A stretch of DNA of 52,682 nucleotides, the filler included, from Circinaria calcarea (lineage: Eukaryota): the NCBI GenBank assembly GCA_051942165.1. It is 2 parts of 2 records of this genome, joined end to end, with 100 filler letters (N's around TTAATTAATTAA, not from the genome) between each part and the next. Parts side by side here need not be neighbours in the genome. Positions count along the whole stretch, not along the records: positions 1 to 26,319 come from JAVECS010000080.1; 1 more part is not named here. The stretch is one strand, 5' to 3'. The notes under the pieces are model-generated. The model did no database searches. It worked only from the letters and a program-made list of their open reading frames with translations, and was not told where the DNA came from. Position numbers and translations under genes: made by a program. Below, piece after piece: positions 5,329 to 40,200 of the stretch. Positions within the stretch are counted from its first letter, which is position 1; every line of letters starts with the position of its first letter.

Positions 5329-5525
5329 ATAATTAAAGGTACCACACAGAATTCTCGCCATGAGAAAGTTTCTCCGGCGGCCCACTAGTTCTTGCGCACG
5401 TACCACGATTTACAGTGGAGCCTCCAGCTCACACATACCGAACCGTGCGCGGTACAAGGGTTTCGGGCGTATCGTCGATCTGCTTAATAACTCCGCATCT
5501 TGTATCTCGTTAAGCGCCAATATGG

Positions 5526-6005: not shown

Positions 6006-6206
6006 TTGTACATGGTGGGAATTACCGCCGGCGTCAGCACTGGATAAGCGTCAGCGTGAAATATATTTAGTATATTTAAATGCCTTCGATTTTTCGATAG
6101 ACGAACAGGAATTATTTAGCTTTAATTCCCTCCTCTATAAGCTTTTTAATAGATATATCTTCAACACTTTCTTGATCTAAACTTGAAACTATCTAAGTAT
6201 AGCAGG

Positions 6207-9200
6207 ATGAATGGTACAGATAGCATAGGTTATAGCGTGGGATGTGCTAGCAATAGACCCTCGGCAGAGGGGGTGTCTGCCAGTGCCAACTTCAATTATG
6301 GCCATACACTCAAAGCATCTACCAAGGCGACGAACGGCAAGGCCTTCACACCTATCGCTATCTGTGGGATGGCTTGTCGCCTTCCTGGGAATATCTCTTC
6401 CCCAAATGACCTGTGGAAGTTCCTTGGCGAAGGAGGAGATGCCCGCAGCGAAGTACCTCCAACCCGGTGGAGTGCTCCAGCTTACTATTCAGCCGTGAAG
6501 AAGCCGGGCACATCGAGAACAAAGCACGGCTACTTTCTTGATGAAAGCGTTGACCTGGGTGCCTTGGATACGGCGGCTTTCCCTATGCCACGCACTGAGC
6601 TTGAACGTTTGGACCCCCAGCAGCGACTATTACTCGAAGTTTCACATGAGTGTCTTGACGATTCCGGTGAGGTTGATTGGAAGGGAAGCGGTATTGGCGT
6701 TTACGTTGGGTGCTTTGGACAGGATTGGTATGATGTGCTTAATCGAGAGAATTTGAAATCCAACGCCTACCAGATTATGGGTTCGCACGATTTTATGGTC
6801 TCAGAACGCATCTCTCATGAGCTGGACTTGCGTGGTCCTTGGTACAGCTCCCTCCAATTGAACCTACGTACTACTCTCCGCTGACTCCTTGTTCACAGCT
6901 TGACCATACGCACCGCCTGCTCTTCCTCAATGATTGGTCTAAACGAGGCGTGCATGGCCATTGCAAAGGGAGATTGCAAAGCAGCAATCGTAGGCGGTAC
7001 TAGCCTTTTCTTATCGCCAAGCACTCTCATAAGTCTGTCTGACCACGGTGTTTTCAGCCCAGAGGGATCCTCCAACACATTCTCTTCCAAGGCCAATGGT
7101 TTTGCACGAGGTGAAGCCATCGTGGCTGTCTATGTTAAGAGCTTAGACGAAGCACTCCGCGACGGCAATCCAATCCGAGCTGTCATATCAGGAATAGCTA
7201 CTAACTTTGACGGCAAGACTCCAAACATGTCCATGCCGAGTGCGCCAGCCCAAGAAGCAGCGATCAGGCGGGCGTACGAGGTTGCGGGCATCAACATCTC
7301 AGAAGTCTGGAAGACCGGATTGTTTGAGTGTCACGGCACTGGTACTGCTGCCGGGGATCCAATCGAGACCCGCGCTATTGCTGCTGTTTTTGGGGACCAC
7401 GGTATACACCTCTCGTCGATTAAACCGAATATGGGCCATTCAGAAGGAGCGGCCGGGATAAGTGCTGTTTTGAAAGCAGTTCTCGCATTGGAACATCGCA
7501 CAATTCCGCCAAGCATCAAAGCGTGGCCACTCAATCCTAAGATTCCTTTCGAAGGCGCCAAACTCGCACTGGCAACGGAATGTATTCCTTGGCCAGCTGG
7601 ACGTCACGAGCGTGTTAGCGTCAATTCATTTGGAATTGGAGGTGCCAATGCCCATACCATCATAGACTCAGCTAGCAGCTACGGTATCTCTCTCACCCCG
7701 GGCCATGATGATGCACATGAAGTAGCATCAGACTTTCCGAGCTTGTTCGTATATTCTGCATACTCGAGCAAGTCTTTGGAACGCATGTCACACAACATCG
7801 AAAGATTCCTTGACGCAACCTCTGAGTCGTTTAACGACGTTGCGCATACCCTTGCCCGCCGGAGGCAGCATCTGCTACACCGATCTTTCGTTGTTTCTGC
7901 CAAAGAGAAGCCCGGGGAAGCTCCACCAGCCCTGACTCAAGAGGTCGGTCTTTCCCATACCGTGGTGATGGTTTTCACAGGCCAAGGCGCGCAATGGCCC
8001 CAGATGGGCAGGGACCTGATCCGCTCCAACCGTGTATTTTCCAAGGTCATTGAGGCCATAGATATGGAGCTCCAGCGTCTTGGAGCCAAATGGACTATCC
8101 AGGAAGAACTCCGCAAGACATCCAGATCAACCAGAGTAAATGAGGCCGAGTTCTCTCAGCCCTTGTGCACAGCGATCCAGATCGGGCTCGTTGAGGCGTT
8201 CGCTTCCGTTGGTATCAAGCCAGCTGCTGTCGTGGGTCACTCCAGTGGTGAGTTTGCGGCTGCCTATGCTGCCGGTGCTCTCACATTGAGCGAAGCTATC
8301 GCTGTTGCATACCATAGAGGGGTTATCTCCAAGACACAGACGAGGCGCGGAGCAATGGCTGCTGTGGGTTTAAGCTGGGCCGAAGCAGATAATTATCTGC
8401 TTCCTGGTGTTGTGGTCGCGTGTGACAACTCTCACAACAGCATAACTTTGTCTGGTGACGCGGATCAGCTCGAGTGTGTCGTGGCTAACATCAAAAAGGC
8501 GCGCCCGGAGATTCCCACAACTACTTTGAAAGTGGAGCGAGCTTATCATTCGCATCATATGGTGGAACTTGGTGAGGCATATCGCCGGGCCATGATTGCC
8601 TCAGGCGTCGTGGGCGCCCGGCATTCCATCCCGTTCTTTTCCAGCGTGACCGGAAAACATCTGTTAAATAAGACTAAGCAAGCACAGCTTGGTCCGAAAT
8701 ACTGGCAGGAGAATTTAGAATCCCCGGTACGCTTTAAGTCAGCCGTTGTCGAAATCCTGAAACAAAGCGACATTCCAAGCCCGGTCTTTCTGGAAGTCGG
8801 ACCCCATGCAGCTCTCGCGGATCCTATCAGACAGATCCTGATCAATGAGTTGCGCAAGGCGCCTCATGTACCGACTCTCACAAGGCGGAAGAATGGTACC
8901 GAGAGTCTTCTAACGGCGATTGGGAAGCTTTGGACTCTTCATATTGATGTGGACTTCGCAGCTCTTATGCCGGAAGGACGGACATTATCTGGTCTTCCTT
9001 GCTATCCTTGGGATCATCAGAAAAGTCACTGGTATGAGCCAAGAGTGTCTCGAGAATGGAGACTAGGTGGACATCCTTACCACGATCTGCTGGGGAGAAA
9101 GCTGCCTGAAAGCACAGATTTGGAACCCATCTGGAGAAATCTTATCCACCTCCAAAATGTGCCCTGGATTTTGGACCACTGTATCGATGGCGATATTGTC

Positions 9201-12200
9201 TTCCCGTTTGCAGCATATGTGGCCATAGCTGCTGAGGCAGTTCGGCAGGTCAGTGAGGCTCAGGAGACTGTCGATATGCGGAATGTGGTCGTCAGCAATG
9301 CACTACCAATCAGTGAAGAGTCACCAACAGAACTCGTGACCAGCTTCCGGCGCAACCGCCTGACCGACTCTTTAGAGAGCGATTGGTGGGATTTCACCAT
9401 ATCATCCCATAATGGTCATATCTGGACAAGACATTGTACAGGTCAAGTGCGCCCGGGCTCTGATAGTTTATCGATTGGAGCTTCTTCACCTTCGGCCCCA
9501 AGTACCTCTACGCTCCCGAGGAAGGTGGATAGCCGGAGTTGGTACGAGGCAGTCCACCGAAAGCGGCTCAGCTACGGTCCTCATTTCACGTGTTTGGAAG
9601 ACATAACCTCATCGGCAGTCACACCGAGTAAGGCTTCGGCTAAGTTGCGCAACAATTGGCATGGCGATGAGGCCAACTATTATCTACACCCTGTTGTTGT
9701 CGATGCCTTCTTCCAGCTCCTGAGTCTTGCAGCGCATAATGGTCTTGGCCATGCATATCGTCGGCAAGTTCCGACTAGTATTGATCACCTGACCATTTCC
9801 CGGTGCCAGTCAGAAGAACTCCAGCTATACTTGGAAGGTGGGGTAAATCATGACGGCGGAGCTTCTGGACAGGGACAATGTACAGCTGGCTCAAGGATCG
9901 TCTCGCAATTCTCGGGGGTTCGAATGGCTCTTTTTGAGGGTGCCGAATCTACAGCGAAGAATGATTTCCCACTGACAGCTCGAGCTGAATGGGTGTCACA
10001 CGTCGGTTTCAGGGATATCAGCACACTCTTCCAGCCTGTTGATGCCAACGTTAGTGGCATCAAGATCTTGGAAGATCTCACTCATTCGGCCATCCGGTTC
10101 TCGCAGCAAGTGTTATTCCTCAGTGCTAAACCAGAATCTCCTCATCTGCAGAAATATGGAGCTTGGTTAAAGGAGCAACGGGTTACTTCTTCCGAACGCA
10201 TGCATCATGACAGTACCGAGCTGGCCGAGTCGATTCAATCAATCACCCAAAGCCTCGAATCCACTCCTCTCTCATATGCAGCCAAAGCCATTGCGGGCGT
10301 CTGTTCCAATGTCGACTCGATCCTATCTGGTAAGCGAGACGCTTACGACGTCTTAGCCACCGACGGCGTTCTTGAGAAGCTCCTCGAATTCATGTCCGAG
10401 TATGACGGGTCCAAGTTCTTCCGCGACCTTGGGCATTTCAAGCCCAACCTACGTGTTCTTGAGCTCGGTGCTGGCTCTGGTGCGGCGACGACCAAGATTT
10501 TACAATGCCTGCGACATGACAAGGGCCAGAACCTCTTTTCGAGGTACGTGCTCGCCGATGCGTCGACAGGTCTTATTAATGTAGCAAAAGATCGGTTCAA
10601 GGGTTTCACGAATCTGGAGTTTACTTGCCTCAACATTGAAAGAGACCTGGTCGACCAAGATTTTGGCGACGAGGAATTCGATCTCGTCATTTCAGCTGGA
10701 TTCTTGCACACGACGATCAACGTGGCGAGGAGTCTGTCCAATATTAGGAAACTCTTAAGCCCGAACGGAAGATTGCTCGTACAGGAGCCAGCACCAGGAC
10801 AAATCTGGACCAAATTTATTCTCGGCACATTGCCTTCTTGGTGGTCTGGTCATGATGACAGTCGTCCAGATGAACCGTTTATGAGTCGAGAAAGGTGGAC
10901 AGAAAAGCTCGACTCAGCTGGGTTCAGCCGACCTAATTTCGTTGAAAACCTCGGTCAAAATACAGTTATCGTTGCACAACCAGAGTATCAACAATTCCTA
11001 TCCAGAAAAGTAACCTTACTATGCGAACAAAAATCTACCGAGACAGAGAACGTCTGTCATGAGCTCCAAGCGCGAGGATATGACATTAACCGTTGTACAC
11101 TAAACGAAAGCCCCATCATCGGACAGGATATCATCGCACTCATCGACCTAGATAAGCCATTTCTATGGGATGTCACAGCAGCGCGCCTCAAATCCTTCCA
11201 AAACTTCGTCAAAAACCTACAGGGGTCTGGCGTTCTATGGGTCACGCGGCTATGTCAGGCTGGTGTCAAAGACCCCAGGTACGCGCCCATTATTGGGCTT
11301 TCTCGCACAATGAGGTCGGAGCTCGCAGCCAGCTTCGCCACATGCGAGACAGACGAGCTGACCTCGACGGCAAGCGTCAATGCTCTGGCCAAGGTATTTT
11401 GTAATTTTCAGGATCGGAGACACGATGGAGTTCTCGGCCCGGAATTTGAGTACTCAATTTCGAACGGGGCCGTTTTAGTTAATCGATTCTTCCCCTTCGA
11501 GTTGGCAACTGAGATACAAGATATGGAGTCAACCCAACTTCCAGAAGCATCACTGGCAATTGGCAAGAAGGGTCAACTGGGCACCCTGCAATGGTCTGCT
11601 CGAAAACCTACAATCCCGCAAGGAGACGAGATCGAAGTCGAAGTGCATGTGATAGGTCTCAACTTTAGGGTCAGTACTCCGAATATTACCATAGGTGTAA
11701 TACTAACTAACCTCACTTCAGGATATCTTGGTCGCCATGGGGATTCTAACGCTCCCCGAAACACATTTCGGCTACGAAGCAGCGGGCGTTGTCCGAAAAA
11801 TTGGACCGAAAGCGACCAAGTTCTGCGTGGGTGACCGGGTTGTGATCATGGGGCACAACACCTTCGCGACCACTGTGACGCAATCGGAATTGCTTTGCGA
11901 AAGACTTCCATACTCTATTGATCTTCTTGACGGCGCCGGCTCTCCTCTTTGCTTCACAACGGCGATTTATGGACTTGCGGACATCGGGCGGCTTGAAGAG
12001 GGACAGGTGAGTGACTACCTCTTATGCAACATCCATCAGTATAGACGAAAAGAAATATTCTAACCATCAAACGTCTGGCAGTCCGTGCTCATCCATAGCG
12101 CCGCTGGTGGTGTCGGCATAGCTGCCATTCAGGTTGCCAAGATGCTCAAGGCGAACATCTATGTGACTGTAGGTAGTCCCGAGAAAAAAAAGTACTTGAT

Positions 12201-13940
12201 CGACACCTTCGGAATACCAAACGACAATATTTTCGACTCGCGTAGCGCCGCCTTCGCAGCTGATGTGATGCGCGAAACTGGAGGTAAGGGGGTTGATGTG
12301 GCTCTCAACTCGCTCTCCGGTGAGTTGCTGCATCAAACGTGGAGTTGCATCGCCAAATGGGGTACGATGGTTGAGATTGGCAAGCGAGATTTGTTGGGAT
12401 CTGCCAAGTTGGATATGAAACTATTTGCCGACAACCGCAATTATTGTTGTATTGATATGGACCAAATGACCAGAGAGAAGCCCAAGGCCATTGACAGGTG
12501 AGACTCTTTGTCTATTGTTCGGCGTTCCATTATGATTTTCTGACTATCAGCAGATTGCTGCGAAGGATGATGGAGTATTTCCGCCATGGCTATTTGCAAC
12601 CCATCCCGCTGGCTCAAGTGTCGCCTGCATTTGAAATGCCAGAATCATTCAGACTCATGCAGCAGAGCAAGCATATTGGGAAGATGGTCGTGGAGCTACG
12701 GAACAGCCAAGGAAAGCTTCTGATCAGTGACATACAAGCGTCACAGAAGCGTCCGGTTACGCTCGATGATTCTGCAGCATACCTCTTGGTTGGGGGACTG
12801 GGGGGCCTCGGGCGTTCAATTGCACGCTACATGGTTCAGCAAGGTGCTCGGAATCTCATCTTCCTATCTCGAAGCGCTGATAAGAATGATCAGCGGTACC
12901 GAGATTTCATCAAGGAGATTGAGGGCATGGGAAGTACTGTCCAGTGTGTCCGGGGAAGCGTGGCACAGCAAGCGGACGTCGAGCGAGCTATAGATGAGGC
13001 GCTAGCCCCGGTAAGGGGCATCCTCAATATGACAATAGCGCTGGCTGACGAAGCCTTCTTGCGAATGACGATCGAGGATTGGAACACATCGGTCGAGCCC
13101 AAGGTCAAAGGCACCTGGAACATTCTAGAGATCATCAAGTCGCGTGGGCTTGACCTTGACTTCCTCGTCCTCATCAGCTCCTTATCGGGCATTGTTGGTC
13201 AGACAGGCCAAGCCAACTACTCCAGTGCAAACACTTTTCTTGACGCATTCTCGCAGTACAGTACAATCCAAGGATTGCCATGCACAACCATCACGTTCGG
13301 TGTCATGGAGGGTATCGGCGTCATGAGCAACAACGTTGAGCTCTTGAAGAAGTTGCAAGGCTCAGGTTGGCGCTTGAACAATGAATCAGAACTAATTGAA
13401 GCCGTAGATTCGGCGATACAGCTCCAGACCACCAAGCGGGCTATCAACATGAAGCAGGCACTCGCCTCGAGTTCCATTAACGCGGTCGACAAGACCAGGT
13501 TCATTTTTGGGCTATGTCCAACCGTGCCGCTCAGCAGCCCCGACAGCTATACAAACCTACGGGCCGATGTCCGCATGGCGGTATATCACAATTCCAAACG
13601 GCAGAGTAACAAGTCGGCTGTGTCAGAGGACGCTTTGCGCACGCTTCTAAGCACAGCAAAGAAAGATGCATCAATCCTTGAGTCCAGCGAGAGCGTGTCA
13701 CTTCTCGCCATGGATATTGGGAAGAAGCTTTGCAGCTTGCTGCTACTACCCGACAATAACCTGAGCCCTACAATGAAGACAGGCGAGATGGGGCTGGATT
13801 CCATGGTGGCGGTCGAGATGGGTGCTTGGTGGAAGCTTACTTTTGGTCTCGAGATGAGTATGTTGGAGATGGTGAGCATGGGGACTTTGGAAGCATTGGG
13901 GAAGCGGGCAGCAGAGGACCTCATCCGCCTTTACACTTGA
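6207..13940 (+). CDS. highly reducing iterative type I polyketide synthase (KS-AT-DH-cMT-ER-KR-ACP), ~2497 aa, no TE/R domain
   Basis: Introns 6842-6898, 11670-11721, 12007-12081, 12498-12553 (or 12550). KS TACSSS/HGTGT/GHSEG; AT GHSSG and AYHSHHM; DH HCIDGDIVFP; cMT LELGAGSG and FLHTT; ER GLNFR|D and LIHSAAGGVG; KR GGLGGLG and YSSAN; ACP GLDSMVAVE; stop shortly after the ACP. Confidence 0.96.
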
Positions 13941-13963
13941 CCAACCAATTAGTGGGGCTGTTC

Positions 13964-14270
13964 CTATAACACGATTAAATTTACTTCCACTTTGTTCTGA
14001 GAAGAGATTTCCAGCCTGTTTTAACAAGAGATTTCCAATCTCTTCTAACAAGAAGCCATAGCGAAGTTCAAATTCTGAATGTTTATTTATTCATATAACA
14101 TGGTTGAATGAATTAATTACTTATTAATTTCCAATCTGTTCTAATAAGAAGCCATAGCGAGGATCAAATTCTAAATCTCTGGTTTGCTTGTATAACACGG
14201 TTGAATTGATTATCTATTGATTTCCAATCTGTTCTAAAAAGCCATAGCAAAGATCAAGTTCTGAATCTTT
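13964..14270. repeat. degenerate ~93-96-bp tandem repeat (~3 copies plus a partial) that includes the last codons of the methyltransferase gene
   Basis: Unit atttccaatct..ttctaa..aagccatagc..a..tcaa.ttct.aat..tataacacggttgaat starts at 14031, 14127 and 14220; the third copy overlaps the MT stop and C-terminal codons. Confidence 0.85.
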
Positions 14271-15379
14271 GTCTCAGGTCGGAGTCCATCATTCCAGCCG
14301 ACGTGGCCGAAGCCGACGGAGCTTAGTACCTTTTCCCAGGATTGCGGGCTCTGCAGGGCGTGTTGTCGCCCGTCTTCAAACGCCCACCACCCCGAAATCA
14401 ACCCAAAGGCGACATCGGCCCAAAGCATTTGCGCCGTCAGCTCATGGAATATCGTGAAACCATCCGGTCGTAGCATCTTGCGGATGATTGCCAATGAAAC
14501 GGACAGATCGCGAGTCGCATGAAGAACATTTGACCCGAGGACGATATGTTGGGTGTTTTGCAGCGTCGCATCCGGTTCCTTTTCGATATCCACGACCTTG
14601 TATTCCACAAAGGGGTATTCTTCAAGCTTCTTTTGCGCTGCCGAGACGAAGACAGAGCTGATATCGCTCATGGTATATACCACCGGTATGCCGAGACGAG
14701 CCAGTACTGGGACTATCTTGAAGGTCGTGCCTCCGGTACCTGCCCCGACTTCTAGTACTCGGAGGGGCCCGGCATCTTTTGGCCATGTGCTGCCAATCTT
14801 CTCAATGAAAGCCGCTAGCTGTTGGAGGATTGTGCTGAATAAGGGGGACTTGGCATAGAAATTTGTCATGAGCGTGCGACCTTCGTCGGAGCCGAACAGC
14901 AATTGCAATGGATCCGCCTTGCCAGATAGGCATTTGGCAAAAGATCCGCCTGTTCTTTGCATAAGCCCGAGTTCCCACTCTTGTGCAGGCCTGTCGTCAA
15001 GGAGGTTTTCCAGAATGTCCTCAATTTCGCTGCTAGGACAAGCGACGGATGTGCGAGTGATTTCCTCGCCGTTGGTCTCGATCAAGCCAGCCTTTTTCTC
15101 CAAAGCTTTATACATGTAGTCAATGAGCTTTTCGTGTCTTGGAAGATGTCTAATGCGCTCGAGCTTTGTACCAGGTGCTGCAGATCGAATCGGACACCCG
15201 AGTTCTTCAAAGGCATTGCAAAAGACTGCGATCGCTAGCTCGTCCGATCTCGGGATAAACTCCGAACAGTAGGTGTCTATCTTGTTCTTCACGATGAAAT
15301 CGTCAGTAGCTTCCCGCATGCTGCGGAATGCATCCAAGACAGTAGCCGAGCTGAGCGAGCCGTCCTTATTCGAAAGCAT
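14234..15379 (-). CDS. free-standing SAM-dependent C-methyltransferase resembling an NR-PKS CMeT domain, ~381 aa from the first in-frame ATG (open frame extends to 15460)
   Basis: Intronless ORF with LRVLEVGAGTGGTT, YTMSDIS, VDIEKEP, HIVLGSNVLHAT and GWWAFEDGRQHAL, plus the N-terminal helical subdomain (LDAF..TDDFI..AFEELGC..HLPRHEKL) typical of CMeT domains of citrinin/azaphilone-type NR-PKSs. Start codon uncertain. Confidence 0.8.
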   Translation of the reverse strand: MLSNKDGSLSSATVLDAFRSMREATDDFIVKNKIDTYCSEFIPRSDELAIAVFCNAFEELGCPIRSAAPGTKLERIRHLPRHEKLIDYMYKALEKKAGLIETNGEEITRTSVACPSSEIEDILENLLDDRPAQEWELGLMQRTGGSFAKCLSGKADPLQLLFGSDEGRTLMTNFYAKSPLFSTILQQLAAFIEKIGSTWPKDAGPLRVLEVGAGTGGTTFKIVPVLARLGIPVVYTMSDISSVFVSAAQKKLEEYPFVEYKVVDIEKEPDATLQNTQHIVLGSNVLHATRDLSVSLAIIRKMLRPDGFTIFHELTAQMLWADVAFGLISGWWAFEDGRQHALQSPQSWEKVLSSVGFGHVGWNDGLRPETKIQNLIFAMAF

Positions 15380-15795
15380 TTTGAAGTCGATATTCGGAGC
15401 TGCGACGCCGTTTGCTATAACTCTGTTGTTGCTGCTGTGGTGGGATATACTGTTAACCAATTATGTATTTTTCTTTGGCTCTTCTTGTTCGTCTTCGACT
15501 GCTGTAACGAGAATATAAGGTCTTAGGACTGAGTTTAGAAGATTTTACCATAGTCTCTTTATCAAAATTGACTAAATTTTTAATGGATCGTACAGGTATT
15601 CAGGGTGACTGCTGACGCGAGCACGGTAATAGAGAAGAGACTCGACTGGACAGTGCCCCCTCACCGGACGATAGTCCCAGAACAGGACGGAAGGCGGCTG
15701 ATCCTTAGAAATTCACCAATGGCTTTCCACTGATAACATGCTGGCGGGGAGTCGGGAATGGCTTTGCGAATGCCGCCACGTCAACCTCGTTAGTG

Positions 15796-16104
15796 CATAC
15801 AGAGTACAGATGACACGGCTGGAATCCTTCGTGGCATTCATAGCCCTTGTACAGCGCCGCTTTATTATTAATAAAATATAATATATTTAACAACAGAAAT
15901 GAAATTTTAGTACAGCTAATAATTATTGCTCAAGCGTATTATTTTTAAGAAACTATTATTATTTTCTTTATGCGGTGTTGTGGCAAAGACTCGGGAAAAG
16001 TATTAAAACGCTATTGAGAAATTAGGTAGATTCCCTTGCCTTTAACCCTGTATAATATGTGCATTAATGAAGGATTCTAGCCCATGTTGTCTGTATTTTG
16101 TATG
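15796..16104 (-). mobile_element. MITE-like non-autonomous element, copy B (inverted relative to copy A)
   Basis: Imperfect TIRs 15796-15830 and 16069-16104; reverse complement shares blocks such as cccgagtc(t)ttgccacaacaccgcat and aatgccacgaaggatt with 5820-6005. Confidence 0.7.
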
Positions 16105-16734
16105 TTGTCAGAACGGATGCTTATGCTAAGCACGGCGTAATATAGCGATCAACGCCCATTATCCCCTAGTTAGACTGTGCCGCAGGCTTGTAAGGTAGCT
16201 CTGATCAGTCTGACCGGAGGGACTTCAATATAGTGGTGGTAGTTACAAGGCAGGATAGTGGAGTAGTCATAATGGTGTTGACGGCATTAGCCTTGACGTG
16301 TGATATAAAGGCAGAGCCTGCATGAACTTGGCGCTAGCGGGTGAGAGCGGAAAGCTCGGCGCGCTAGAAAGATCTTCTCCCCAGTATTACCCCATTAATA
16401 TGCAGCTACAGAGGGGTGATAATGAAAACGCGCATTGCGCTTTACAGCGTATAAGCGGGGGGTATATATCACCATAATTAAGTTCAAATTTTAATAGCGC
16501 TTGCCTCTTGATGGCCTGGTGGTACCCCGTCCTATTTTTTCTGACTCTCCCCTTAGGCCTAATCCGTGACATAAATAATAAGATAAAAGTAACGGTTTGG
16601 GAGCTCCGGGTGATTCGACCTTCTTATAAAGACTGTTGCTAGGAACGGAGAGTATGAAATTTTACCTCGGTTTTTATACGTTCGCCCCTACCTCTAGGAC
16701 CCCGGCATATTCTGAGACTGATAAAAATCTTAAG

Positions 16735-17665
16735 ATGACTTCGTCAAGTACTGCTAAGCTGTTTCGCGTCGATGGACTGGTGGCCTTAATAACAGGCGGT
16801 GGCACTGGTGGGTCTTGAACTGTCAATGTCGATTTGTAAGTACCTACTAATACGATTAGGCATTGGACTTATGATGACAAAGGCCCTTGCTCGCAATGGG
16901 GCCAGTAAAGTTTACATCAGTGGCAGGCGAAAAGAGGTCTTGGAAGAAGCTACGAAGCAATCGCTACATGATAACATCATTCCTCTTGTCGCCGATGTAA
17001 GCTCGAAGGAAGACATCGAAGCACTTGCAAAGCACATACGAAATGATGTCGGCCACCTGAATCTTCTCATTGCCAATGCTGGAATTTGGGGTCCTGGACC
17101 CGGGCAACCTCTTGGCACAACGCTGCAAGAGGTTCAAGCGGAAGCAATGAAGACGACAATGGACGAGTGGGATAAGTGTTTCCGAACCAATGTTCATGGC
17201 TGCTATTACTCTATCATGGCCGTCCTCGATCTCCTCGACGAAGGCAACATAAGGAAGAATTATTGCAATGGCGAGGTGAAAAGCCAGGTCATCGTCACCG
17301 GCAGCGTAGGCGGTTATTCCCGGATTGTCGGCGGGCGCAACGCCTATCGCGCCAGCAAAGCTGCAGTAACGCACCTTGCCAAGTGCCTCTCCACAGGCTT
17401 TCAAGAGTTTGGCATCCGAGTGAACACGCTCGCACCAGGCCTTTTCTCATCCGATCTGGCAGCACCCCTGATTAAGAGATATAACGAGTCTGCCGGCGAG
17501 GACGGTAAGCTGGACAGGAAGCGTGTGCCGGAGGAGCGAATTGGCGCGGAGGAAGACATCATCGGAACGTTGCTATATCTTGCTTCGAGAGCTGGGGCTT
17601 ACAATAATGGTAATGTTTGCGTCCTAGACGGGGGCCTTGTCAGCGTTATGCCGGCGTCTTACTAG
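16735..17665 (+). CDS. short-chain dehydrogenase/reductase (classical SDR), ~292 aa
   Basis: Intron 16808-16859 restores TGGGTGIG; LIANAG, catalytic YRASK, IRVNTLAPG, VLDGG. Confidence 0.93.
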
Positions 17666-18817
17666 ATCCAACACCTCATTTGGAAGTGTTACGGGTCAGT
17701 ATTATAGATTTAAGAGAGCTTGATTTAGACCTATTGGGTACGTCCCTCGGGCTGTTTAGGGACACATCGTACGATTCTGAGAATTTGCGAGAATGTTGAT
17801 CGCTATTCAGCTCAACGCCAAACCAGATCCTAAGTTCCGATTGTGATGCTTGCAAAATCTACTTTAATAAAAACACTGAATAGCTCTCATGCAAGTTGGA
17901 AGCTCTTCCGTGCCGTTATGAATGAATCTATATTTGTTCTGAGCCCCTTGAGTCTTGACATTCTCTAAGAGTTACTAGCAAATATCAGCATACGCGCTAT
18001 CAATCGATTTCCGTACAAACGGCACAAGGTTACACTCAAACCTCTATGGTGTAGGTCTTGTGCATGTAACGTTACTCTTTCGCCCCACCTCCTCAAAGAA
18101 CACATATAAAAACTCTCGCCATACCCTTAAGAACCGGAATGTTCCTGCATTTGCAATGCGCGCAGCGCATACAACTTCCATTTTTCAGTCCGAGGTGGCT
18201 GTAACACCGGCGGCTGCATCCCAATCCTTCGTACTATGGTAATACGTAGATCTATGCAGTCAGCACACCGCTTGTTAGTTGCTGTGTCGGGCCTCGGATC
18301 TCCATGTCATTACCTATTGTAGCATGTCCGTGCATAGAGTTTGAATCTACTCGAATCAGCAAAGAGGTGCATAATGTATGCTTTCTCACCATTTAGGAGT
18401 GAGCACTATGGCGGCACGCCATACCCTGTGCTACCAAGGCTGGGGACGGAGGGACTAGGAGCCGCTTACTCCCGGGGCTCCCAGGGCTTGGCAGCAGGAG
18501 CAACAGGGTATGTTCCCAGTGCTCCCACTGGGGATCAGTGGGAGCCACGGGAGCAACACTACTATATAGACAGGCTATTCCTGCTCTTTAGAATAGCATG
18601 CTTATAGCCATACACGGAACAAAAATAGACCAATATTACGTTCCTAGTAATCGTGCACACCGGAGTGACTCTATCCCTTATACGAGTCTAGCAATATCCT
18701 AGCACTCTTACACCCATAGAGGCTCTTCTTCCCTCCATCCTTGCCATTCTCTTCTTTCTCTTGCCTCTTGTCTCTCTCTTACCTCCTCGTCTATCGACTC
18801 TTACTTGGCTAGATGCA

Positions 18818-20756
18818 ATGGATTTATCCGGGTTATCCTCATTCCCGGATGTGGAGCTGCTTCCCACTTTTCTCGACCGAGTCGCATCCGAGGATCCATC
18901 AAAAGTTTGGATCTCCTGCCCGAAAGATGTTAACGACATGTCCAAGGGCTTCCGAGACTACACGGCTCGCGAACTGGCGAATTACGTGAACAATGCAGCA
19001 TGGTATGCTAGCATTTTCTATGGCTTCTTACCGACACCGTTCCTTTCTAATATGCTAGGTTCCTTGACGAGCACCTGGGCAAGGTTCGAGAAGGCAAGCT
19101 GCCGGTGGTTGCATATATTGGACCATCCGATATACGTTACCTCCTTCTACCAATTGCCTTGGCCAAGTGTGGCTACGAGGTCAGTTGTCCTGTACGCATT
19201 TGAAAGCCGCTGCAAAACAGCTAAACCCGCCACAGTCACTTCCTCTTTCTGATCTTGTCTCGGCCCAGGTGCGCGTATATCTCACCGAGGAGGCAGGATG
19301 TGATATCTTAGTTTGCGCTCAAGGGTTCGGGGGCGACGAGGTCTTGTCTCGAAAGACGATGCGACGCGTCATTTTCCCGGAGCTAGATGAACTGGCTGAG
19401 CCGCCAAATGCAAAGCATTACCGGTATGAAAAAATCCCCGAAGAAGGTCTTAACGACCCGTTCTTCATATTGCACACATCTGGCTCGTCAAGTGCAAAAG
19501 GCTTCCCGACGGTCAGGTTCGGAGATCCTAGAATGAGACTAGATTCTAACACTTTGTATAGATGGTGCGCTATCCTCAAGGCGCGGCTGCACTCAATGGC
19601 CTCCTCCGGCATATTCCTGATTATGACGGTCTACCCAACTTGTATAGTGTCACGAGCCGATCATCTAGAACCTATACTGGGTTTCGTATTACTCATGCTG
19701 GAGGATTCTTTTTCGCTATCCGCCAGATTTACCAAGGCGTAACCATTGTCGTCGGGGGGGATGATCAAGCTTCGATAAAGTCTATCGAGGCAGCAATCGA
19801 TCACGGGCGTATTGACAGTGCCGCCTTAGTGCCAAATAGTCTGAAAGAAATCAGTGGATCCCCCAGAATGCTCGAGAAGCTATCGAAGCTGAAATGGGTT
19901 ATATCTTCAGGAGGTAAGCTGATATCCGAGCTCTTAAGAGTTACTCAAATTCTCTCTCCACTTACTAATTATCATTCCAGCGATGCTGCCCAAGCAAGTT
20001 GGCGATATAATTTCAAAGAAGGTCCACCTTATCAGTATCTATGGTTCGACAGAGGCCATCAGCACCACGCACAACATACTCCCCACTGAAGACTGGGAGT
20101 ATATCCACTCCAATCCAAACATTGGTAACCTCCAATTTGAGGAAAGCGGGGACAACCTTTTCGAAGCCGTATACATCAAACACCCCGACCCGGCCCTCCG
20201 CCTTCATCAAGGTGTATTCTGGTGCCTTCCCCATCTAGATAGATGGTCAATGGGCGATCTCTTCTCCCCGCACCCTACCAGGAAGAACACCTGGAAATAT
20301 GTCAGCCGAGCCGACGAACTCATCATCATGGCCAACGGTTACAAGCTCCTCCCAACGTTCTTTGAAGAAGAAATCCTCGGAAAAGACCCCCGCATCAAGA
20401 GCGCCAGTATCTACGGAACCGCCAAAGAGCATCTGGCCGTCATCGTCGATCTTGTCAACCCTCCACCGCCTTCTTACTTTGAGAACAAAGATAAGGTGAT
20501 GAAAAGCACAACAACATCATCAACAACGACAGATGCTCCTGATCCCGATCCCATCGTTGACGAAATCTGGCCCGTAATCCAAACTGTTAACGACCCGTTA
20601 ACGAAGTTCTCCACTAAGACCAGTCAGATCCTCAAGCGTGCCGTTATTATGGCGGATCCGAAACGGCCACCTCCGAGGACAGGAAAGGGTGGGGTACAGA
20701 AAAAGTTGACTGAGAAACTGTATCAGGAGGAACTGGATTGGGCCTTTAGAACTTGA
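18818..20756 (+). CDS. free-standing adenylate-forming (ANL) enzyme of the fungal NRPS-like/carboxylic-acid-reductase A-domain type, ~569 aa, no T or R domain
   Basis: Introns 19003-19058, 19180-19235, 19512-19561, 19914-19980 (1710 nt CDS). VAYIGPSDIRY, A3-like HTSGSS, YGSTE, GDLFSPHP, SRADELI, NGYK, A10-like RTGKGGV; stop about 18 codons later. Confidence 0.9.
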
Positions 20757-22949: not shown

Positions 22950-23904
22950 ATGCACCTTATGCGGTTTGCCTTACCTTTGGTCGTCGGCTTGAGTGGGGTG
23001 TTATCGTACCAGGATACCTACCAACATCAGCTGTAAGCTTCCTAAAGGTTCCATATAAACTGACAGTGACCCATGCCATAGTCGAGATCTAGAAGAGCGC
23101 AGTGTTAATAGCTATCTTGACGCCCGATATGCCTACGACTCCCGCGTAGACCCTCGAGATTACGGCAGGGTTGACACGAGAGAAGCAGATCCCGAACCTC
23201 TCGCAGATTATGACTAGCTTATCCACCTCATAGCCCGAGGCCTCTTACCCCCTCGTGCTGCGCCCAAATCGCCTTCCAAACCTGCTCCTAAATCGCCCTC
23301 CAAACCCGCCCCCAAATCACCAGCCTCGCCCAAAGCACCTTCTTCTGGCAGTCACAAACTCGACGGCAGCCCTGCTGTACAAAAGGCAGTTCAAAGCTGC
23401 TCCCGTGGTCGCAGCTCTCATAAACGCGCTGATGACTTTCATTACGACATGGAAAAAATGGGCGCCACAGGGTGGCATGATAACAAAATGCTCACGACGA
23501 AAGGGCTCTGCGGGTGCTTCGTTGCCGCCATAGTCGCCCCCACTGGTGCCATGGCAGCCCATATCCCGCATGGCAAAATGGTGCAGCAAAATGGACAAAG
23601 GGTACAGACAGTGACCGCGGATCAGCAAGCGACCCTGCAAATGCGCGAGCTGATGACTTACTATAACACACACAAGGCCTTGGTACCGCATGCCAAGGCG
23701 GTTCTGGTACAGATGAATGGTGCGTCAAACAGCGCCACGGCTATTATCAAGAATGCTTTAGAGGGGGCGGGCCTATCGGTAACCCCATATGTCTATGCTA
23801 ACGTCGAGTATGGGAAAGGGGTATTTACAATTGATGGGTCAAATACCCAGGACAGGTATTACCCGACCATGCGGCTTGATGTGCATGATGTGCCTCTTCG
23901 TTAG
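22950..23904 (+). pseudogene. secreted pre-pro-protein with putative CNF1/CheD-like cysteine deamidase domain; one in-frame TAG at 23215-23217 (~301 aa if read through)
   Basis: Signal-peptide-like MHLMRFALPLVVGLSGVLS; canonical intron 23033-23081 (gtaagc..ctgac..catag); pro-region LEER/LDAR/READPEP/LIAR; (APKSPSKP) repeats; KR site (HKR|ADD); C-terminal domain with TTKGLCGCFVAAIVAPTGAMAAHIP. The whole model is one frame apart from the single stop. Confidence 0.7.
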
Positions 23905-24337: not shown

Positions 24338-25322
24338 TCAATCTTGAAGCATGGCAGCAATCTCATTGTACCCCTTCTGCATAGCAAGTTGCAACGCCGT
24401 CTGTCCCTTCGAAGATTTAATCTCCCGATCCGCCCCTTTCCGCAGCAACAGCTCCACCATATCGCTTTTCCCGGATTTCGCGGCATGGTGCAACGCATTC
24501 TCCATTCCGAGAATGGAAATAAGTGAGCCACAACGATCGCCGGTATAATTTTGCATCGCAAACGCATCCACGGGGGCTCCTTGATCCAGCAGGAACTCGG
24601 CCACTTCTAAGCGGCCGGGTTCTCCTCTGGCGTGTGCGATGGCGGCATTTGCAATAACGTCTGTGGACTTGACGTTCGCACCGTTGCTGATTAGCAGACG
24701 GATTACGGCGAGAGGGGCGCGCTGGGCGGCGCTTTCCATGGGGATCCTGCCCATGGCGCAGGTAGCGTTAGGGTCAGCACCGTGTGACAGATACCATTTG
24801 ATAAGCTCTTCGTTGCTCACTACTAACCTGGGTCTTGTTAGGATGAGTGCGATTGGCTGAATGCGGAAGCGATGGACCGCGTACTCACCTGAGCGTAGGA
24901 CCGACAGTCAAGTCAAAAGGTTGGTTGATATTCCAGCCGTGATCAAGGAGTATTTGGAGAGTGGATGTACTTCCGGTCTTGACAGCACGATCTGCTGCTA
25001 CTTCGGTTGCCATTGGATCGATTGGGATACGCTGGTCTAGTAGATAGGAGACTACCGAGTCATGTCCGTTCCTTACAGCGGGTTCAACGGCGGACTGGAA
25101 GTAATCCAGGGCCTCTTCCGCGATTAGACCTCCGTTGGCTGGTTCCCGCCAAGAGGAGAGGATGTGTTGGGCCTCGAAGACGTTGCCAGCGGCGGCCACA
25201 TTATCTAACTTGATTGACGCGGCTAAGAGGAGTCGGTTCGGGTTTGGGAATCGTGAATATCCAACTGGAGGCAGCTGTGGTCGGTCGACATCTGGCTCTA
25301 TAAATCCACATGTATTCATCAT
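24338..25322 (-). CDS. ankyrin-repeat protein, ~307 aa
   Basis: Intron 24828-24888 (gtgagt..cag); ankyrin motifs LLDHGWNIN, YLSHGADPN, LISNGANV, LLDQGAPVD, ALHHAAKSG..LLRKGAD, GQTALQLA. Confidence 0.9.
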
Positions 25323-26319: not shown

Positions 26320-26419
26320 NNNNNNNNNNNNNNNNNNNNNNNNNNNNNNNNNNNNNNNNNNNNTTAATTAATTAANNNNNNNNNNNNNNNNNNNNNNNNN
26401 NNNNNNNNNNNNNNNNNNN
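26320..26419. other. artificial assembly/contig-joining spacer
   Basis: Exactly 44 N + TTAATTAATTAA (26364-26375; stops in all six frames) + 44 N = 100 nt. Confidence 0.95.
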
Positions 26420-32499: not shown

Positions 32500-33260
32500 A
32501 GCAGAGTCCCTTTCAAAAGGATTGTTCTTGGTCTCCGCCATACCAACCTTTATGTAATTCTAAATCAATGAAACCAATACCAGATCATTCACCCCACGCC
32601 TTAGAACCCCCCGGAAACGAGCCGAAAAGCATTTTACAACGCCGGAATACTGACGCGTTAACAAACCTCGAAAGACAGATGCCATATATCTGCTCCCCGT
32701 GGCAGCAAAGGGGTCGAAACGATGATCCACGTAGGCGGGGAAAGCAACCGAAAGTCACAACGAAATGGCCAACCAACAGCACTAATGGCTCCCCATGTAC
32801 ACAGACGGAAGCGGAATAGAAGAACAAGTCGGCTCGGCCGCCACAACAGCCGACGGCAAAAACAGCAGTAAGGCGTACATGGGCCCAGCAACAGAAGCGA
32901 ATGTATATGCCGCACAGCTATACGGAATCCGCATGGCATTAAGAATAGTGACGATCCTCTGCATCAGAACTAAACCAAAAGGAGTGGTAATCTTGACAAA
33001 CAACCAAGCGGCAATCAAAATAGGCCAGTCTATCGTGACAGACAATGGAAGTATTTTAACAAAGCAGGGATTAAGCAGCCGCTCCACTGGATTCCGGCTC
33101 ACACAGGCATCGCAGGCAACGAAATGGCGGACCGACTCGCGAAAGAAGCCGCAAGACACAACGCTCAACGGGCGGAAAAAACCCCGAGGACTTCAACACT
33201 CCGTTCAGCCTGCAGCACCACCCTAAAATAAGCATTGACAAGCAAGTGGGTCCAAAATTG
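32500..33260 (+). mobile_element. decayed non-LTR retrotransposon (Tad1/I-like LINE) fragment, RNase H domain
   Basis: YTDGS, VYAAQLYGI, ILTNNQAAI, then in another frame HWIPAHTGIAGNEMADRLAKEAA (~33085-33153); expected catalytic E and D appear as Q and N; frameshifted. Boundaries approximate. Confidence 0.85.
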
Positions 33261-37287: not shown

Positions 37288-40200
37288 TCAATCTTCAAGT
37301 ATTTCCCTCACCTTGTCTGCTGCCTGCTCCAGCGCTTGGCAAAACGGCCCTGTCTGCCCCTCTGTGCTCTGAACATAGAACCGACATCCATCCTCCTCGA
37401 CCTCATAATGCACCCATACACTTTTTGGATCCGGCATCAGAAACCCCGCCTCCTGCACCATCAACCCCTCCGACGCGTCCGTCTTGACCATCCTCGGGCT
37501 CGTCACATGCATCATCTCCCACGTCGGATCCGTGAAGAAGGCCGGTATCGGCTCATCTTCGTGCAGCATTTCCCGCAGCGCTTCCAAGTGAGCCGCAAAG
37601 CCCTTCCCTCTGCCGATCCTCATCATCGTGCTGGCGTGCGTGGTTGCAGCCTCGTAAAGTAGCCTCCGCCGCACGGCTACTCGAGTGTGGTCTTCAATGG
37701 CTGCGCTGCAGAAAGCGAACATGGCGGGCAAGACCACCTGCATCCAATCTAAGCGGCCGCTGTCGAAGGGCATCATGTTGAGTGTTTCCCAGCAAGGGTG
37801 TTGTTGGCCAAAGTGTAAGAGAGAGGCAAGTTGAATGATGAGCTGGCAACCGGTTTTGGATGGCAGTTTGTGGGTGCGAAGGAAGGTCATGCCGATGGTG
37901 GAAAGGTAGAAATGCGCGAATTCGGCCCGAGCATGGCTTGCTAGAAAGGTTCGGCGAACGCGACCAATATGGCTTTCAATCTCTTCGGTTGTGGTAAAGG
38001 TATGTTCCTGGACGATGTTTTCGCATCTATCACCCTGCAGCCCAAGCATGCCGGGGCGATCCTTGGCATTCTCATGAAGAGAGCCGTTGAGCTGCGCGTC
38101 GGGCTTATGATCGAGAATGCTCTGAGAGATGTATTGGTTGATCTGCTTGAGCGAGGCCGCATCGAGCATTGAGTGTTCACAAACATACGCCGAGACGCCA
38201 TTCTCGCAGATGACAAACTGCAAGGATTTGTCACTCCAGCGGTTGGAAGGATCGCCTAGTAGGAATTGATTGCATCGATTGGTTGGAGTATCTGGAGCTC
38301 CGTCATCAAGACAGACTATGAAGGCTGCGGCTTCTATCAGGTCAATCAACTCATCGTTCCTTGTGTCGACCGCCTTCACAGTCTTGCGAAGCTCCGCCCA
38401 AGAATCCCGTCCATCCGCGGACAGGGTAGCTACTGAGGGTAGCGTGGCCTGCGAGTTATCTATTATTGCTTCAAAGGCTGCTTTCAATTCGATGTAAGAT
38501 GCGTTTTCGCCTTGACTGATGAGCACCACTTTGAATATATGGCCTCGTCTCAAAGCAATAAGATAATCGTTTCCCGGGTACTGACACATTTCATCCTTAC
38601 CGACACATGCCCTACGGTTAGCATTGAAAAGCCACCGTAACGATTTCATACAAATGGGCTCTTCGTTCAGGTAGTCTTGCTCGGGTTTCCCAGCGTTAAT
38701 TCGCTGCTTAAACTTGTAGGCGGCCACTGATATAACCGCGGCCCGTTCTGCCTGACCGTGTGGGATGTCAGTTAAGAGATGAACACCATAGAATATCCCG
38801 TATGGATAAACGGGATCACGTCTCGAAAGGTATATGCCGTTGACTTGTAGGTCATGTTGCCAGCTATCTATTTGCGGATCCTGTGTCCGTTCCATGAGTC
38901 GCTTCTGCAATTGCCAGCCAGAACCTTTTCGGAAATTTTGTATTGAGTCGGAGGCGTGCTTAAATCCGTCTTCGGGTAGGAAAGCGCTAGCCGAAGTCAA
39001 ATAGAGGTCAAGAGTCTCATCCAGATCAGGAAGAGGAAGCTGAGGAAGCGAAGGAATTGGATCGCCGTTATGTTGACTTTGGCCGAAAAACTGCTTTTGC
39101 TCCAAGGTGGCTGTTTCCTTTTTATATGCTTTGGCGCCCTCATACTGCTCCGATTTGGTTTGAGGGTCGTGGTGAATGAACGTCATTCTGGAAGCGATCT
39201 TTGCACTGAGTGCTACAATGCTAGGTCCATCGAGGATTTCAGAAGCTTGAATAGCTGCATCAAATTCCTGGGCAATCCAGTTCTTCAGCTCGATGGCAGT
39301 TAGAGAATCCAGACCAAAGCTCATTAAAGGTGATTCCCAGCTAATCTTGTCGTAGCTGAGAGCAACAAGAACAGATAGCTTTCTAGCTATTGCTTCAATG
39401 ATAATTTGATGTTTCTCGATGAGACTTTGAGCGCATGCAACGACCTCCTTCTTGCTTCTGACGACGGAATTATTCTGACTGTGCCCGTCACTGGCGTGAG
39501 GAATTTGCAAGTGGACAAAAATTGGACTCCGTGTGGTAGGAGTCGCATTTTCTGCTTTTCCTATTGATGCCCCATCGATTCCTATTACGGCTTGTCGGCG
39601 TTGATCTTTACGAGCCTCGGGAGAGATGGCGTAGTCCAGAAATGCTAGCAGTTCCTCGGATTTGACCGGGATCCATCCTTGTCGAAGCAGATTCTGCAGC
39701 CGAGCCTGACCCTCAGTGTCTTCGTAGGCGGAAGTACCCTCAATCATTCCAAGGTTGAGGGACATGTAATGTGTTTTTGAACTCATTTCGTTATGGGCGA
39801 CGGCATCCTGGAAAGTGTTTCCTGCCGCATAATTCGCTTGTCCCTTGCTGCCAACAGTACCACTGAGGGATGAGAGCATTATGAAAAAATCAAGAGGCGA
39901 GGTCTGAAATGCTCTATTCAAACAGCGCGTGCCATGCATTTTGCTTTGTAGCGGAACCCCAAACACGTCTGCGGTCATACGCTCAAGAACGCGATCCTAT
40001 TTAGTAAAAGTCAGAATCGACAACAGGTGTATGCGAAAATTCAGGCCTCACTTGTAACACCGTGGCCGACTGTATAACCCCTCTGACAGGCGGTAGACCT
40101 ATTGCTTCAAAGCCGGCTACTACCTCCTGGAGCATTAGCATATTTGAGATATCACAAGCTATGCTGTAGAATACAAGACCAGCCGATGTCGATCGAAGGT

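What the first reader, a model, noticed from the sequence alone, without database searches (positions are those of the whole stretch)
22950..23904. Hidden secreted effector/toxin candidate with a CNF1/CheD-like deamidase dyad
Seen (only partly visible in the ORF track): signal peptide, canonical intron, pro-region with LEER/LDAR/READPEP motifs, Pro/Lys/Ser repeat linker, a KR site, then a ~158-aa domain with T-K-G-L-C-G-C-(hydrophobic strand)-G-A-M-A-A-H-I. The Cys (23515) and His (23560) are 15 residues apart. Established: E. coli CNF1 uses LSGC Cys866/His881 with the same spacing, and BLF1, CheD and YfiH share this Cys-beta-hairpin-His fold; CNF1, BLF1 and CheD deamidate target glutamines. 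Inference: a Kex2-matured fungal glutamine-deamidase-like toxin or effector, a class I do not know to be characterised in fungi.
Basis: partly seen in the sequence, partly recalled or inferred. Interest (0 to 1): 0.75.

Follow-up and report, generated by a model that had tools for sequence, protein, structure and literature searches.

The report
Secreted fungal CheD-fold enzyme, broken copy
This fungal gene belongs to a small, unnamed family of apparently secreted proteins whose predicted shape and active-site residues match bacterial amide-cutting enzymes and toxins, but this particular copy is interrupted by an early stop codon and its target is unknown.

Summary
The gene (ATG 22950, intron 23033-23081, stop 23904) has a signal-like N-terminus, a Kex2-type pro-region, a Pro/Lys/Ser linker, a KR site and a 158-aa domain. 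Its AlphaFold2 model (pLDDT 84) matches CheD (Z 13.4), NTAN1, YfiH, BLF1 and CNF1; the best unrelated fold scores 4.6. Thr24, Cys30 and His45 are invariant in 10 of 10 aligned rows (27-42% identity), with the Thr-to-Cys spacing of the CheD and NTAN1 triads. No Pfam or NCBIfam family matches. However, an in-frame TAG at 23215-23217 (codon 73) ends translation before the domain, and no consensus splice route avoids it. The copy is most likely a recently inactivated allele; no reads were available to exclude an assembly error. Homologues have open pro-regions. A linker Cys co-occurs with the Cys beside the active site (4 of 4 lineages versus 0 of 3; possibly one event), suggesting a disulphide-tethered pro-helix. 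Protein deamidation and toxin function are inferred; YfiH-type small-molecule substrates are a real rival. Seven literature searches found no fungal secreted member. Verdict: new variant of a known superfamily, broken here.

The parts
22950..23032 (+). Exon 1: start codon, predicted signal peptide (about residues 1-19) and start of the pro-region
   Evidence: translation, hydropathy peak 2.49. Cleavage site inferred; SignalP not run.
23033..23081 (+). 49-nt intron (GTAAGC donor, CTGAC branch point, CATAG acceptor)
   Evidence: Consensus signals match five neighbouring introns read by eye. No RNA evidence.
23082..23214 (+). Acidic pro-region with LxxR sites (LEER, LDAR) and an R-EA-DP-EP dipeptide run
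   Evidence: coding-like codon score in this frame; same repeat style in other signal-bearing genes of the genome; LxxR/KR motif from PMC8528282 passages. Dipeptidyl-peptidase trimming is recalled.
23215..23217 (+). In-frame premature TAG (codon 73): the break
   Evidence: No consensus splice route around it.
23218..23427 (+). Rest of the pro-region, Pro/Lys/Ser repeat linker (tandem repeat 23258-23318), short helix ending in Cys (23398), and the final KR site
   Evidence: (helix at model residues 12-21; block pLDDT 73)
23428..23904 (+). 158-aa mature domain with CheD/CNF1/YfiH-like fold: Thr24 (23497), Cys28 (23509), catalytic Cys30 (23515), His45 (23560); stop codon ends at 23904

Best explanation
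A recently inactivated copy of an unnamed fungal family of secreted, Kex2-matured cysteine amidohydrolases of the CNF1/YfiH-like superfamily, built on a minimal CheD-sized domain. In intact family members: the signal peptide routes the precursor into the secretory pathway (inferred); Kex2 cuts the acidic pro-region at LxxR and KR sites and frees the domain (sites shown, cleavage inferred); in one branch a short pro-helix stays tied by a disulphide to Cys28 beside the active-site loop until it meets a reducing environment (inferred, weak); Cys30 attacks a Gln or Asn side-chain amide of a protein of another organism, His45 acts as acid/base and Thr24 orients it, releasing ammonia (fold and residues shown by prediction and conservation; chemistry by analogy; substrate and target organism inferred). 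In this genome a single nonsense codon at position 73 stops translation before the domain, so this allele most likely yields no enzyme.
For: Fold: all 8 of 48,161 chains with Z>=5 belong to this superfamily. CheD Z 13.4 (rmsd 2.8, 129 aligned), NTAN1 10.3 (3.1, 127), YfiH 8.9 (3.0, 116), YlmD 8.5 (2.8, 120), BLF1 8.2 (3.9, 129), CNF1 7.2 (3.5, 129); next fold 4.6. Foldseek CheD E 1.1e-5. A second model gives the same ranking. Triad: T24, G26, G29, C30, H45 invariant in 10 of 10 rows. CheD Thr21/Cys27/His44 and NTAN1 Ser69/Cys75/His92 have the same 6-residue Thr/Ser-to-Cys spacing (PMC7022378 passages). G-L-C-G-C parallels the L-S-G-C loop of BLF1/CNF1 (PMC8960835 passages). Architecture: 7 of 9 lineages keep upstream sequence, all ending in KR 28-31 residues before the Cys, with 41-168 open residues upstream. 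The genome uses the same pro-region style elsewhere: 29 pattern matches versus 6 for the reversed control, about ten of them in prepro-like frames. Break: TAG in frame; of 83 in-phase hypothetical introns (38 GT-donor ones printed), none of the 38 has a CTRAY branch point near its acceptor; the first ATG after the stop is out of frame; neighbouring genes that I read show no breaks. Latch: linker Cys present in 4 of 4 lineages with Cys28 and 0 of 3 testable lineages without it. Complex prediction gave weak support: 0.48 versus best of 3 controls 0.01, runs sharing at least 64% of contacts, partner pLDDT at least 52; that mark was reached by 51 of 78 solved and 2 of 108 mismatched pairs, but at 0.60 or under by only 5 of those 78 and by all 4 mismatches that passed (of 180), and peptides are untested.
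Against: No activity, substrate or expression data. The top structural matches, CheD and NTAN1, are housekeeping or signalling enzymes. YfiH hydrolyses UDP-MurNAc-peptides (PMC8844914 passages), so the fold does not fix the substrate. There is no receptor-binding or translocation domain, so entry into a target cell is unexplained. Model coordinates were not returned, so Cys-His distance and residue-level superposition were not measured. None of the homologue gene calls includes a signal peptide, and their taxa are not given. Conservation is partly ascertained, because homologues were found with this sequence. The Cys28 split needs only one change on a weakly supported tree (57/91), so the covariation may be a single event, and in P0007 the upstream Cys lies 37 rather than 7-10 residues before KR. 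The stop rests on one fragmented assembly (5512 contigs).
Confidence: 0.45

Rival explanations
1. Same secreted enzyme family, but the substrate is a small molecule or cell-wall precursor (YfiH/PgeF-like amidase, nucleoside enzyme, or free Gln/Asn amidase) acting outside cells, for antibacterial action or nitrogen scavenging, not a protein-modifying toxin.
For: YfiH and YlmD score Z 8.9 and 8.5, tied with BLF1 and above CNF1. YfiH hydrolyses UDP-MurNAc-monopeptide through Cys107 (PMC8844914 passages). Its homologue FAMIN cleaves adenosine (PMC6978800, search listing only). A secreted single domain with no entry module fits an extracellular substrate.
Against: CheD, a protein Gln deamidase, is clearly the best match (Z 13.4 versus 8.9). 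The third triad residue is Thr as in CheD, not Asp as in YfiH. The domain lacks the extra ~90 residues of YfiH proteins. Low sequence identity among few, scattered homologues fits a conflict protein.
Confidence: 0.25
2. The gene is intact in the organism and the TAG is a sequencing or assembly error, so this locus encodes a working secreted enzyme.
For: Only one lesion; 228 codons downstream stay open, with all conserved residues, splice signals and coding-like codon usage intact. No RIP signature (composite index -0.5 over the gene). The assembly is fragmented.
Against: Neighbouring genes on the same contig read cleanly: a 1649-aa open PKS exon, the adenylation-domain gene and the ankyrin gene. 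A random error that creates exactly one in-frame stop is less likely than loss of a dispensable lineage-specific gene (inference).
Confidence: 0.17
3. The stop is real but conditional: it is recoded in transcripts at one life stage (RNA editing or readthrough), acting as an off switch on a harmful enzyme.
For: Stage-specific editing that corrects UAG premature stops is documented in Sordariomycetes, with editing also in one Pezizomycete (PMC10776026, PMC11156358 passages). The stop is of the UAG type and the rest of the gene shows no decay.
Against: No conserved stop is seen in homologues, whose pro-regions are open. The RNA around the stop folds no better than shuffles (z -0.1 to 0.64) and is as unpaired as other adenosines (0.94-0.99 versus median 0.97). 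Editing was not found in Aspergillus nidulans or Botrytis cinerea, and this genome's class was not determined.
Confidence: 0.05
4. The fold match is real but the family is catalytically irrelevant (a binding protein), or the motif is chance.
For: Sequence identity to solved members is only 9-15%, and no sequence-level hit exists in Pfam, NCBIfam or PDB.
Against: All three triad positions are invariant at 27-42% identity, among 13 invariant columns of 158. The structural matches stand far above background.
Confidence: 0.04

Closest known systems
CheD chemoreceptor glutamine deamidase (Thermotoga maritima, PDB 2F9Z; Pfam PF03975)
   Same: Best structural match (Z 13.4, rmsd 2.8, 129 aligned); same size; Thr-x5-Cys...His triad; aligned ranges start 3 residues apart, which is consistent with Cys30 matching Cys27 (inferred from range ends only).
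   Different: No PF03975 hit; 13% identity; Cys-His gap 15 versus 17; CheD is a cytoplasmic prokaryotic chemotaxis enzyme, this is a eukaryotic prepro-protein.
NTAN1 N-terminal asparagine amidohydrolase (PDB 6A0E)
   Same: Z 10.3; Ser/Cys/His triad with the same first spacing; eukaryotic member of the fold.
   Different: [quoted passage not shown]
BLF1 and CNF1/CNFy deamidase toxins (PDB 6RVU, 1HZG, 6YHN)
   Same: Z 8.2 and 7.2; L-x-G-C nucleophile loop; Cys/His pair; BLF1 shows that this fold can act as a toxin on a eukaryotic protein.
   Different: Smaller (158 versus 210-295 aa catalytic units); no CNF binding or translocation domains; fungal secretory precursor; targets unknown.
HopAF1/AvrXv3 type III effectors (PF28166)
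   Same: Predicted Cys/His deamidase effectors acting in plant cells (PMC8150971 passages); a low-scoring neighbour in the language-model search (0.82, a lead only).
   Different: Bacterial and injected; no HMM match; deamidation by HopAF1 itself was not detected biochemically.
YfiH/PgeF/YlmD
   Same: Z 8.5-8.9; Cys/His amide hydrolysis.
   Different: 240-270 aa, Asp as third triad residue, small-molecule substrates, cytoplasmic.
Kex2-processed pro-domain (K2PP) fungal effectors
   Same: Signal peptide, disordered pro-domain, LxxR and KR sites.
   Different: None of the fungal secretome papers I searched lists this fold; this copy is interrupted.

Membership tests
CNF1/YfiH-like cysteine hydrolase superfamily | Alpha/beta-sandwich core fold | tested here: met
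   all 8 chains with Z>=5 are members; CheD Z 13.4, rmsd 2.8, 129 aligned (predicted model, pLDDT 84)
CNF1/YfiH-like cysteine hydrolase superfamily | Nucleophile Cys in a short loop (L-x-G-C type) with a conserved His on the following beta-hairpin | tested here: met
   Cys30 precedes strand 31-37 and His45 ends strand 40-46; both invariant in 10 of 10 rows; motif from PMC8960835
CNF1/YfiH-like cysteine hydrolase superfamily | Third triad residue (Thr/Ser six before the Cys in CheD and NTAN1) | tested here: met
   Thr24 invariant, in 12 of 12 sequences checked; reference numbering from PMC7022378
CNF1/YfiH-like cysteine hydrolase superfamily | Cys and His superposed on the known active sites in 3D | tested here: inconclusive
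   Tools return ranges, not coordinates; range offsets are consistent with it
CNF1/YfiH-like cysteine hydrolase superfamily | Cys-dependent amide hydrolysis | not testable with these tools
   Needs an assay
CheD (PF03975) | Match to the family HMM above its cut-off | tested here: not met
   No hit for the domain or 8 aligned members; no match in the genome, while 5 of 14 control genomes matched
CheD (PF03975) | Cytoplasmic protein in a chemotaxis gene context | tested here: not met
   Intron-containing fungal prepro-gene beside a PKS cluster and an ankyrin gene
CNF toxins (CNF1/CNFy/DNT) | Large multi-domain AB toxin with binding and translocation parts | tested here: not met
   301-codon gene with a single 158-aa folded domain; no homologue among 7998 longer candidates scored, which is weak evidence
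CNF toxins (CNF1/CNFy/DNT) and BLF1 | Site-specific Gln deamidation of Rho GTPases or eIF4A | not testable with these tools
   No substrate evidence
NTAN1 (PF14736) | Appended C-terminal region conferring N-terminal Asn specificity | tested here: not met
   The domain ends where it aligns to NTAN1 residue 194 of 305; no Pfam hit
YfiH/PgeF | 240-270-aa protein with Cys/His/Asp triad and Pfam match | tested here: not met
   158 aa, no conserved Asp among the near-invariant polar residues, no Pfam hit; triad from PMC8844914
K2PP fungal effectors | N-terminal signal peptide | tested here: inconclusive
   Hydropathy peak 2.49 after a basic residue; SignalP not available; homologue calls lack their N-termini
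K2PP fungal effectors | Disordered pro-domain with KR/RR or LxxR sites before a folded domain | tested here: met
   motif definition from PMC8528282
K2PP fungal effectors | Uninterrupted reading frame giving a secreted mature protein | tested here: not met
   TAG at 23215-23217; met in homologues over 41-168 upstream residues
K2PP fungal effectors | Expression and effect on a host or competitor | not testable with these tools
   Needs transcripts and assays

The most novel reading that the evidence does not exclude
Ascomycete fungi secrete a class of CheD/CNF1-fold protein deamidase toxins as zymogens: after Kex2 cleavage a pro-helix stays disulphide-latched beside the catalytic loop and is released only in a reducing target cytosol, where the enzyme deamidates a protein of a partner, host or competitor. 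This would be a fungal counterpart of BLF1/CNF1 with its own safety catch. In the boldest form (about 0.02) the premature stop here is a further stage-specific switch.
Probability: 0.2. Interest if true: 0.8.

Novelty: new variant of a known kind. Interest (0 to 1): 0.55.

Why it matters
Characterised protein deamidases of this fold that act on other organisms are bacterial (CNF1, BLF1, VopC; HopAF1 predicted). A secreted fungal family with a complete triad would add an enzyme class to the fungal effector and antimicrobial repertoire, with a direct test (ammonia release, +0.98 Da proteomics, Cys-to-Ala control). The language-model search points to larger unnamed, mostly ascomycete clusters (61 and 80 members, scores 0.93 and 0.92), so the class may be wider than the nine lineages found by sequence. 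The value lies in the family: this copy is probably dead, so intact homologues are the ones to study.

Tried and rejected
Sequence-level family assignment: no significant hit in Pfam, NCBIfam or PDB sequences. Two of the 10 phmmer hits (P0009, P0010) lack the motif and were dropped as spurious. Genomic context for homologues: pattern scans found no confirmed relative in metagenome contigs (0 of 24 stretches), prokaryote genomes (0 of 19), viral contigs (0 of 16) or plasmids, so the homologues' gene structure and taxa stay unseen. Longer or fused forms: none among 7998 candidates, weak evidence. Paralogues in the own genome: only this locus; one E 0.36 match (L005) lacks the motif. Sequencing runs: none was listed, so no reads could be laid over the stop. 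Splice bypass of the stop: no consensus route. An automatic donor-site census was too noisy to use (40 candidates, 42% with +5 G); five neighbouring introns were read by eye instead. RIP as the cause: no signature. A special RNA structure at the stop: none. Internal start at the conserved Met near the domain start: an out-of-frame ATG comes first, and the product would have no signal peptide. Earlier findings of this scan: nothing in 5 look-ups. PMC13733733 (passages) concerns an unrelated TIM-barrel deaminase and only mentions a bacterial CheD-like candidate toxin.

Full report
Observation. The window is fungal DNA; bases 1-26319 are one contig of a 31.5-Mb, 5512-contig assembly. The gene starts at ATG 22950. 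Exon 1 (22950-23032) encodes a basic-then-hydrophobic N-terminus (9-residue hydropathy up to 2.49). A 49-nt intron follows (GTAAGC, CTGAC, CATAG), and exon 2 runs to the stop at 23904. The protein collection holds only a 138-aa C-terminal piece of this locus (P0001).

Is the break real? Of 83 in-phase hypothetical introns that would avoid the stop, the 38 with GT donors were inspected. None has a CTRAY branch point near its acceptor, and the only consensus donor is the one already used by intron 1. Five neighbouring introns read by eye all have G at +5 and a branch-like site. The skipped stretch would also remove pro-region motifs that score as coding. The first ATG after the stop is out of frame. 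There is no RIP signature. Neighbouring genes that I read show no breaks: a 1649-aa PKS exon, the adenylation-domain gene and the ankyrin gene. The rest of this gene shows no decay. I put a real, recent nonsense allele at roughly 75%, an assembly error at 15-20% and conditional recoding at about 5%. Recoding of UAG premature stops by stage-specific RNA editing is known in Sordariomycetes (PMC10776026 and PMC11156358, passages), but the RNA here folds no better than shuffles and homologues show no stop.

Family. phmmer over 1.84 billion representatives gave 10 hits at E<=0.001: this locus, seven true homologues (P0002-P0008) and two spurious hits that I dropped. Further searches added P0015 (6 hits among 3281 candidates) and P0016, a near copy of P0003/P0011 (2 of 328). 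That makes nine lineages at 27-42% identity, all unnamed and from metagenome-type sources except this one. In the 10-row alignment, 13 columns are invariant, including Thr24, Gly26, Gly29, Cys30 and His45. Seven lineages retain upstream sequence. All end in KR 28-31 residues before the Cys, most with acidic Arg-Asp-type repeats, and their frames are open for 41-168 residues upstream. None of those calls includes a signal peptide and no taxon is given, so their being fungal and secreted is inferred. The ESM Atlas gives unnamed clusters as nearest neighbours: two mostly eukaryotic, commonest Ascomycota (0.93 and 0.92; 61 and 80 members) and one mostly bacterial (0.92). The nearest named ones, below 0.9 and so leads only, include NTAN1-like, AvrXv3 and CheD clusters. 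Recognition was 2296, just under the tool's 2300 mark. The gene is single-copy here. The pro-region style is shared in the genome: 29 matches versus 6 for the reversed control, about ten in prepro-like frames.

Fold and active site. AlphaFold2 on 10 sequences gave pLDDT 84.4 and pTM 0.82. Against 48,161 PDB representatives, all 8 chains with Z>=5 are CNF1/YfiH-like: CheD 13.4 (rmsd 2.8, 129 aligned), NTAN1 10.3, YfiH 8.9, YlmD 8.5, BLF1 8.2, CNF1 7.2, CNFy 6.0 and 5.6. The next fold scores 4.6. Foldseek ranks CheD first (E 1.1e-5), then NTAN1 and CNF domains. A second model including the linker gives the same picture. CheD uses Thr21/Cys27/His44 and NTAN1 Ser69/Cys75/His92 (PMC7022378, passages), so Thr24/Cys30/His45 is a full triad, not only a dyad. 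BLF1 and CNF1 share an L-S-G-C loop, and in BLF1 the residue two before the Cys contributes a main-chain NH to the oxyanion hole (PMC8960835, passages); Cys28 is at that position. Coordinates were not returned, so distances were not measured.

A possible latch. All 4 lineages with Cys28 have a short helix ending in Cys upstream of the last KR. The 3 testable lineages without Cys28 have no upstream Cys, and 2 have no upstream sequence. The split needs only one change on a weak tree (support 57/91), so this may be a single event. The model places a helix at this spot (block pLDDT 73). Complex prediction of pro-peptide with domain gave weak support: 0.48 versus best control 0.01, contacts agreeing at least 64%, partner pLDDT at least 52. 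That mark was reached by 51 of 78 solved and 2 of 108 mismatched pairs, but scores of 0.60 or under by only 5 of those 78 and by all 4 mismatches that passed (of 180); peptides were untested and my alignment was not used. The latch is a lead, not a finding.

Mechanism. Shown by sequence or prediction: precursor layout, fold, triad, break. By analogy with the superfamily: Cys attack on an amide, His as acid/base, ammonia release. Inferred: secretion, Kex2 cleavage, disulphide latch, a protein Gln/Asn substrate, and action on another organism. I favour a protein substrate because CheD is the clear best match and the third triad residue is Thr, as in CheD. YfiH hydrolyses UDP-MurNAc-peptides with a Cys/His/Asp triad (PMC8844914, passages), and the missing entry module keeps a small-molecule or extracellular substrate a serious rival.

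Comparison and novelty. It is a member of the CNF1/YfiH-like superfamily on every structural feature I could test, and it works most probably like CheD or BLF1. It is not a CheD, CNF, NTAN1 or YfiH family member by HMM or architecture. Seven searches of the held library listed no paper describing a secreted fungal member. The polymorphic-toxin survey lists Tox-CNF only for gamma-proteobacteria (PMC3482391, passages of the first 300,000 characters). Term searches for CNF, CheD, deamidase and YfiH gave no hits in four fungal secretome papers: PMC9816061 main text and two supplements, PMC13525658, PMC13188720 and 10.1101/2024.08.16.608140 main texts. The main PMC9816061 supplement is cut after about 5 of 21 species and one file was unreadable; the other three papers' supplements were not seen. 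Subscription journals are mostly missing, so absence from print is not established. HopAF1 (PMC8150971, passages) is the nearest plant-effector precedent. CNF1 Cys866 was confirmed in PMC9426531 passages; His881 is recalled.

Verdict. Observation partly confirmed; interpretation partly supported. A new variant of a known kind: an unnamed, probably secreted fungal branch of the CheD/CNF1 superfamily with a complete triad, represented here by a probably dead allele. Interest 0.55.

Noticed in passing
window 3033-20756: A secondary-metabolite cluster just upstream: PLP aminotransferase (class I/II), reducing PKS with methyltransferase domain, separate methyltransferase, short-chain dehydrogenase and a stand-alone adenylation-domain gene. 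PKS plus oxoamine-synthase-like enzyme recalls sphinganine-analogue clusters (recalled, not tested).
   Followed up: partly
window 18818-20756 +: Adenylation-domain gene with four consensus introns that ends right after the AMP-binding C-terminal domain, with no carrier or reductase domain seen.
   Followed up: partly
window 24338-25321 -: Intact two-exon ankyrin-repeat gene convergent with the finding, about 430 bases away. No evidence of a functional link.
   Followed up: partly
window 26320-26419: Runs of N join contig C80 to other sequence; everything beyond 26319 is not the true neighbourhood of the finding.
   Followed up: yes
window 37288-46692 -: A second reducing PKS whose last exon appears, by eye, to carry a carnitine-acyltransferase-like domain after the carrier domain (domain name recalled, not scanned).
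   Followed up: no
window 32786-33226 +: RNase H-like fragment, probably a retroelement remnant (read by eye).
   Followed up: no
L012 and L018 (G000 C514, C736): Two near-identical prepro-genes with RDAYPEA repeats followed by a roughly 50-aa basic peptide with seven Cys, resembling a small antimicrobial peptide.
   Followed up: no
L015-L017, L021-L022 (G000 C688, C1028): Kex2-type repeat precursors that would release many Lys/Ser/Gly-rich peptides.
   Followed up: no
BFVD matches to the model of window 23428-23901: Five giant-virus proteins (Mimiviridae and relatives; one annotated CheD) match the fold at E<=3e-4, at 11-13% identity.
   Followed up: no
window 23569-23640: Besides the triad, His48, Thr63, Gln66, Gln67 and Gln71 are invariant or nearly so and may shape substrate binding.
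   Followed up: no
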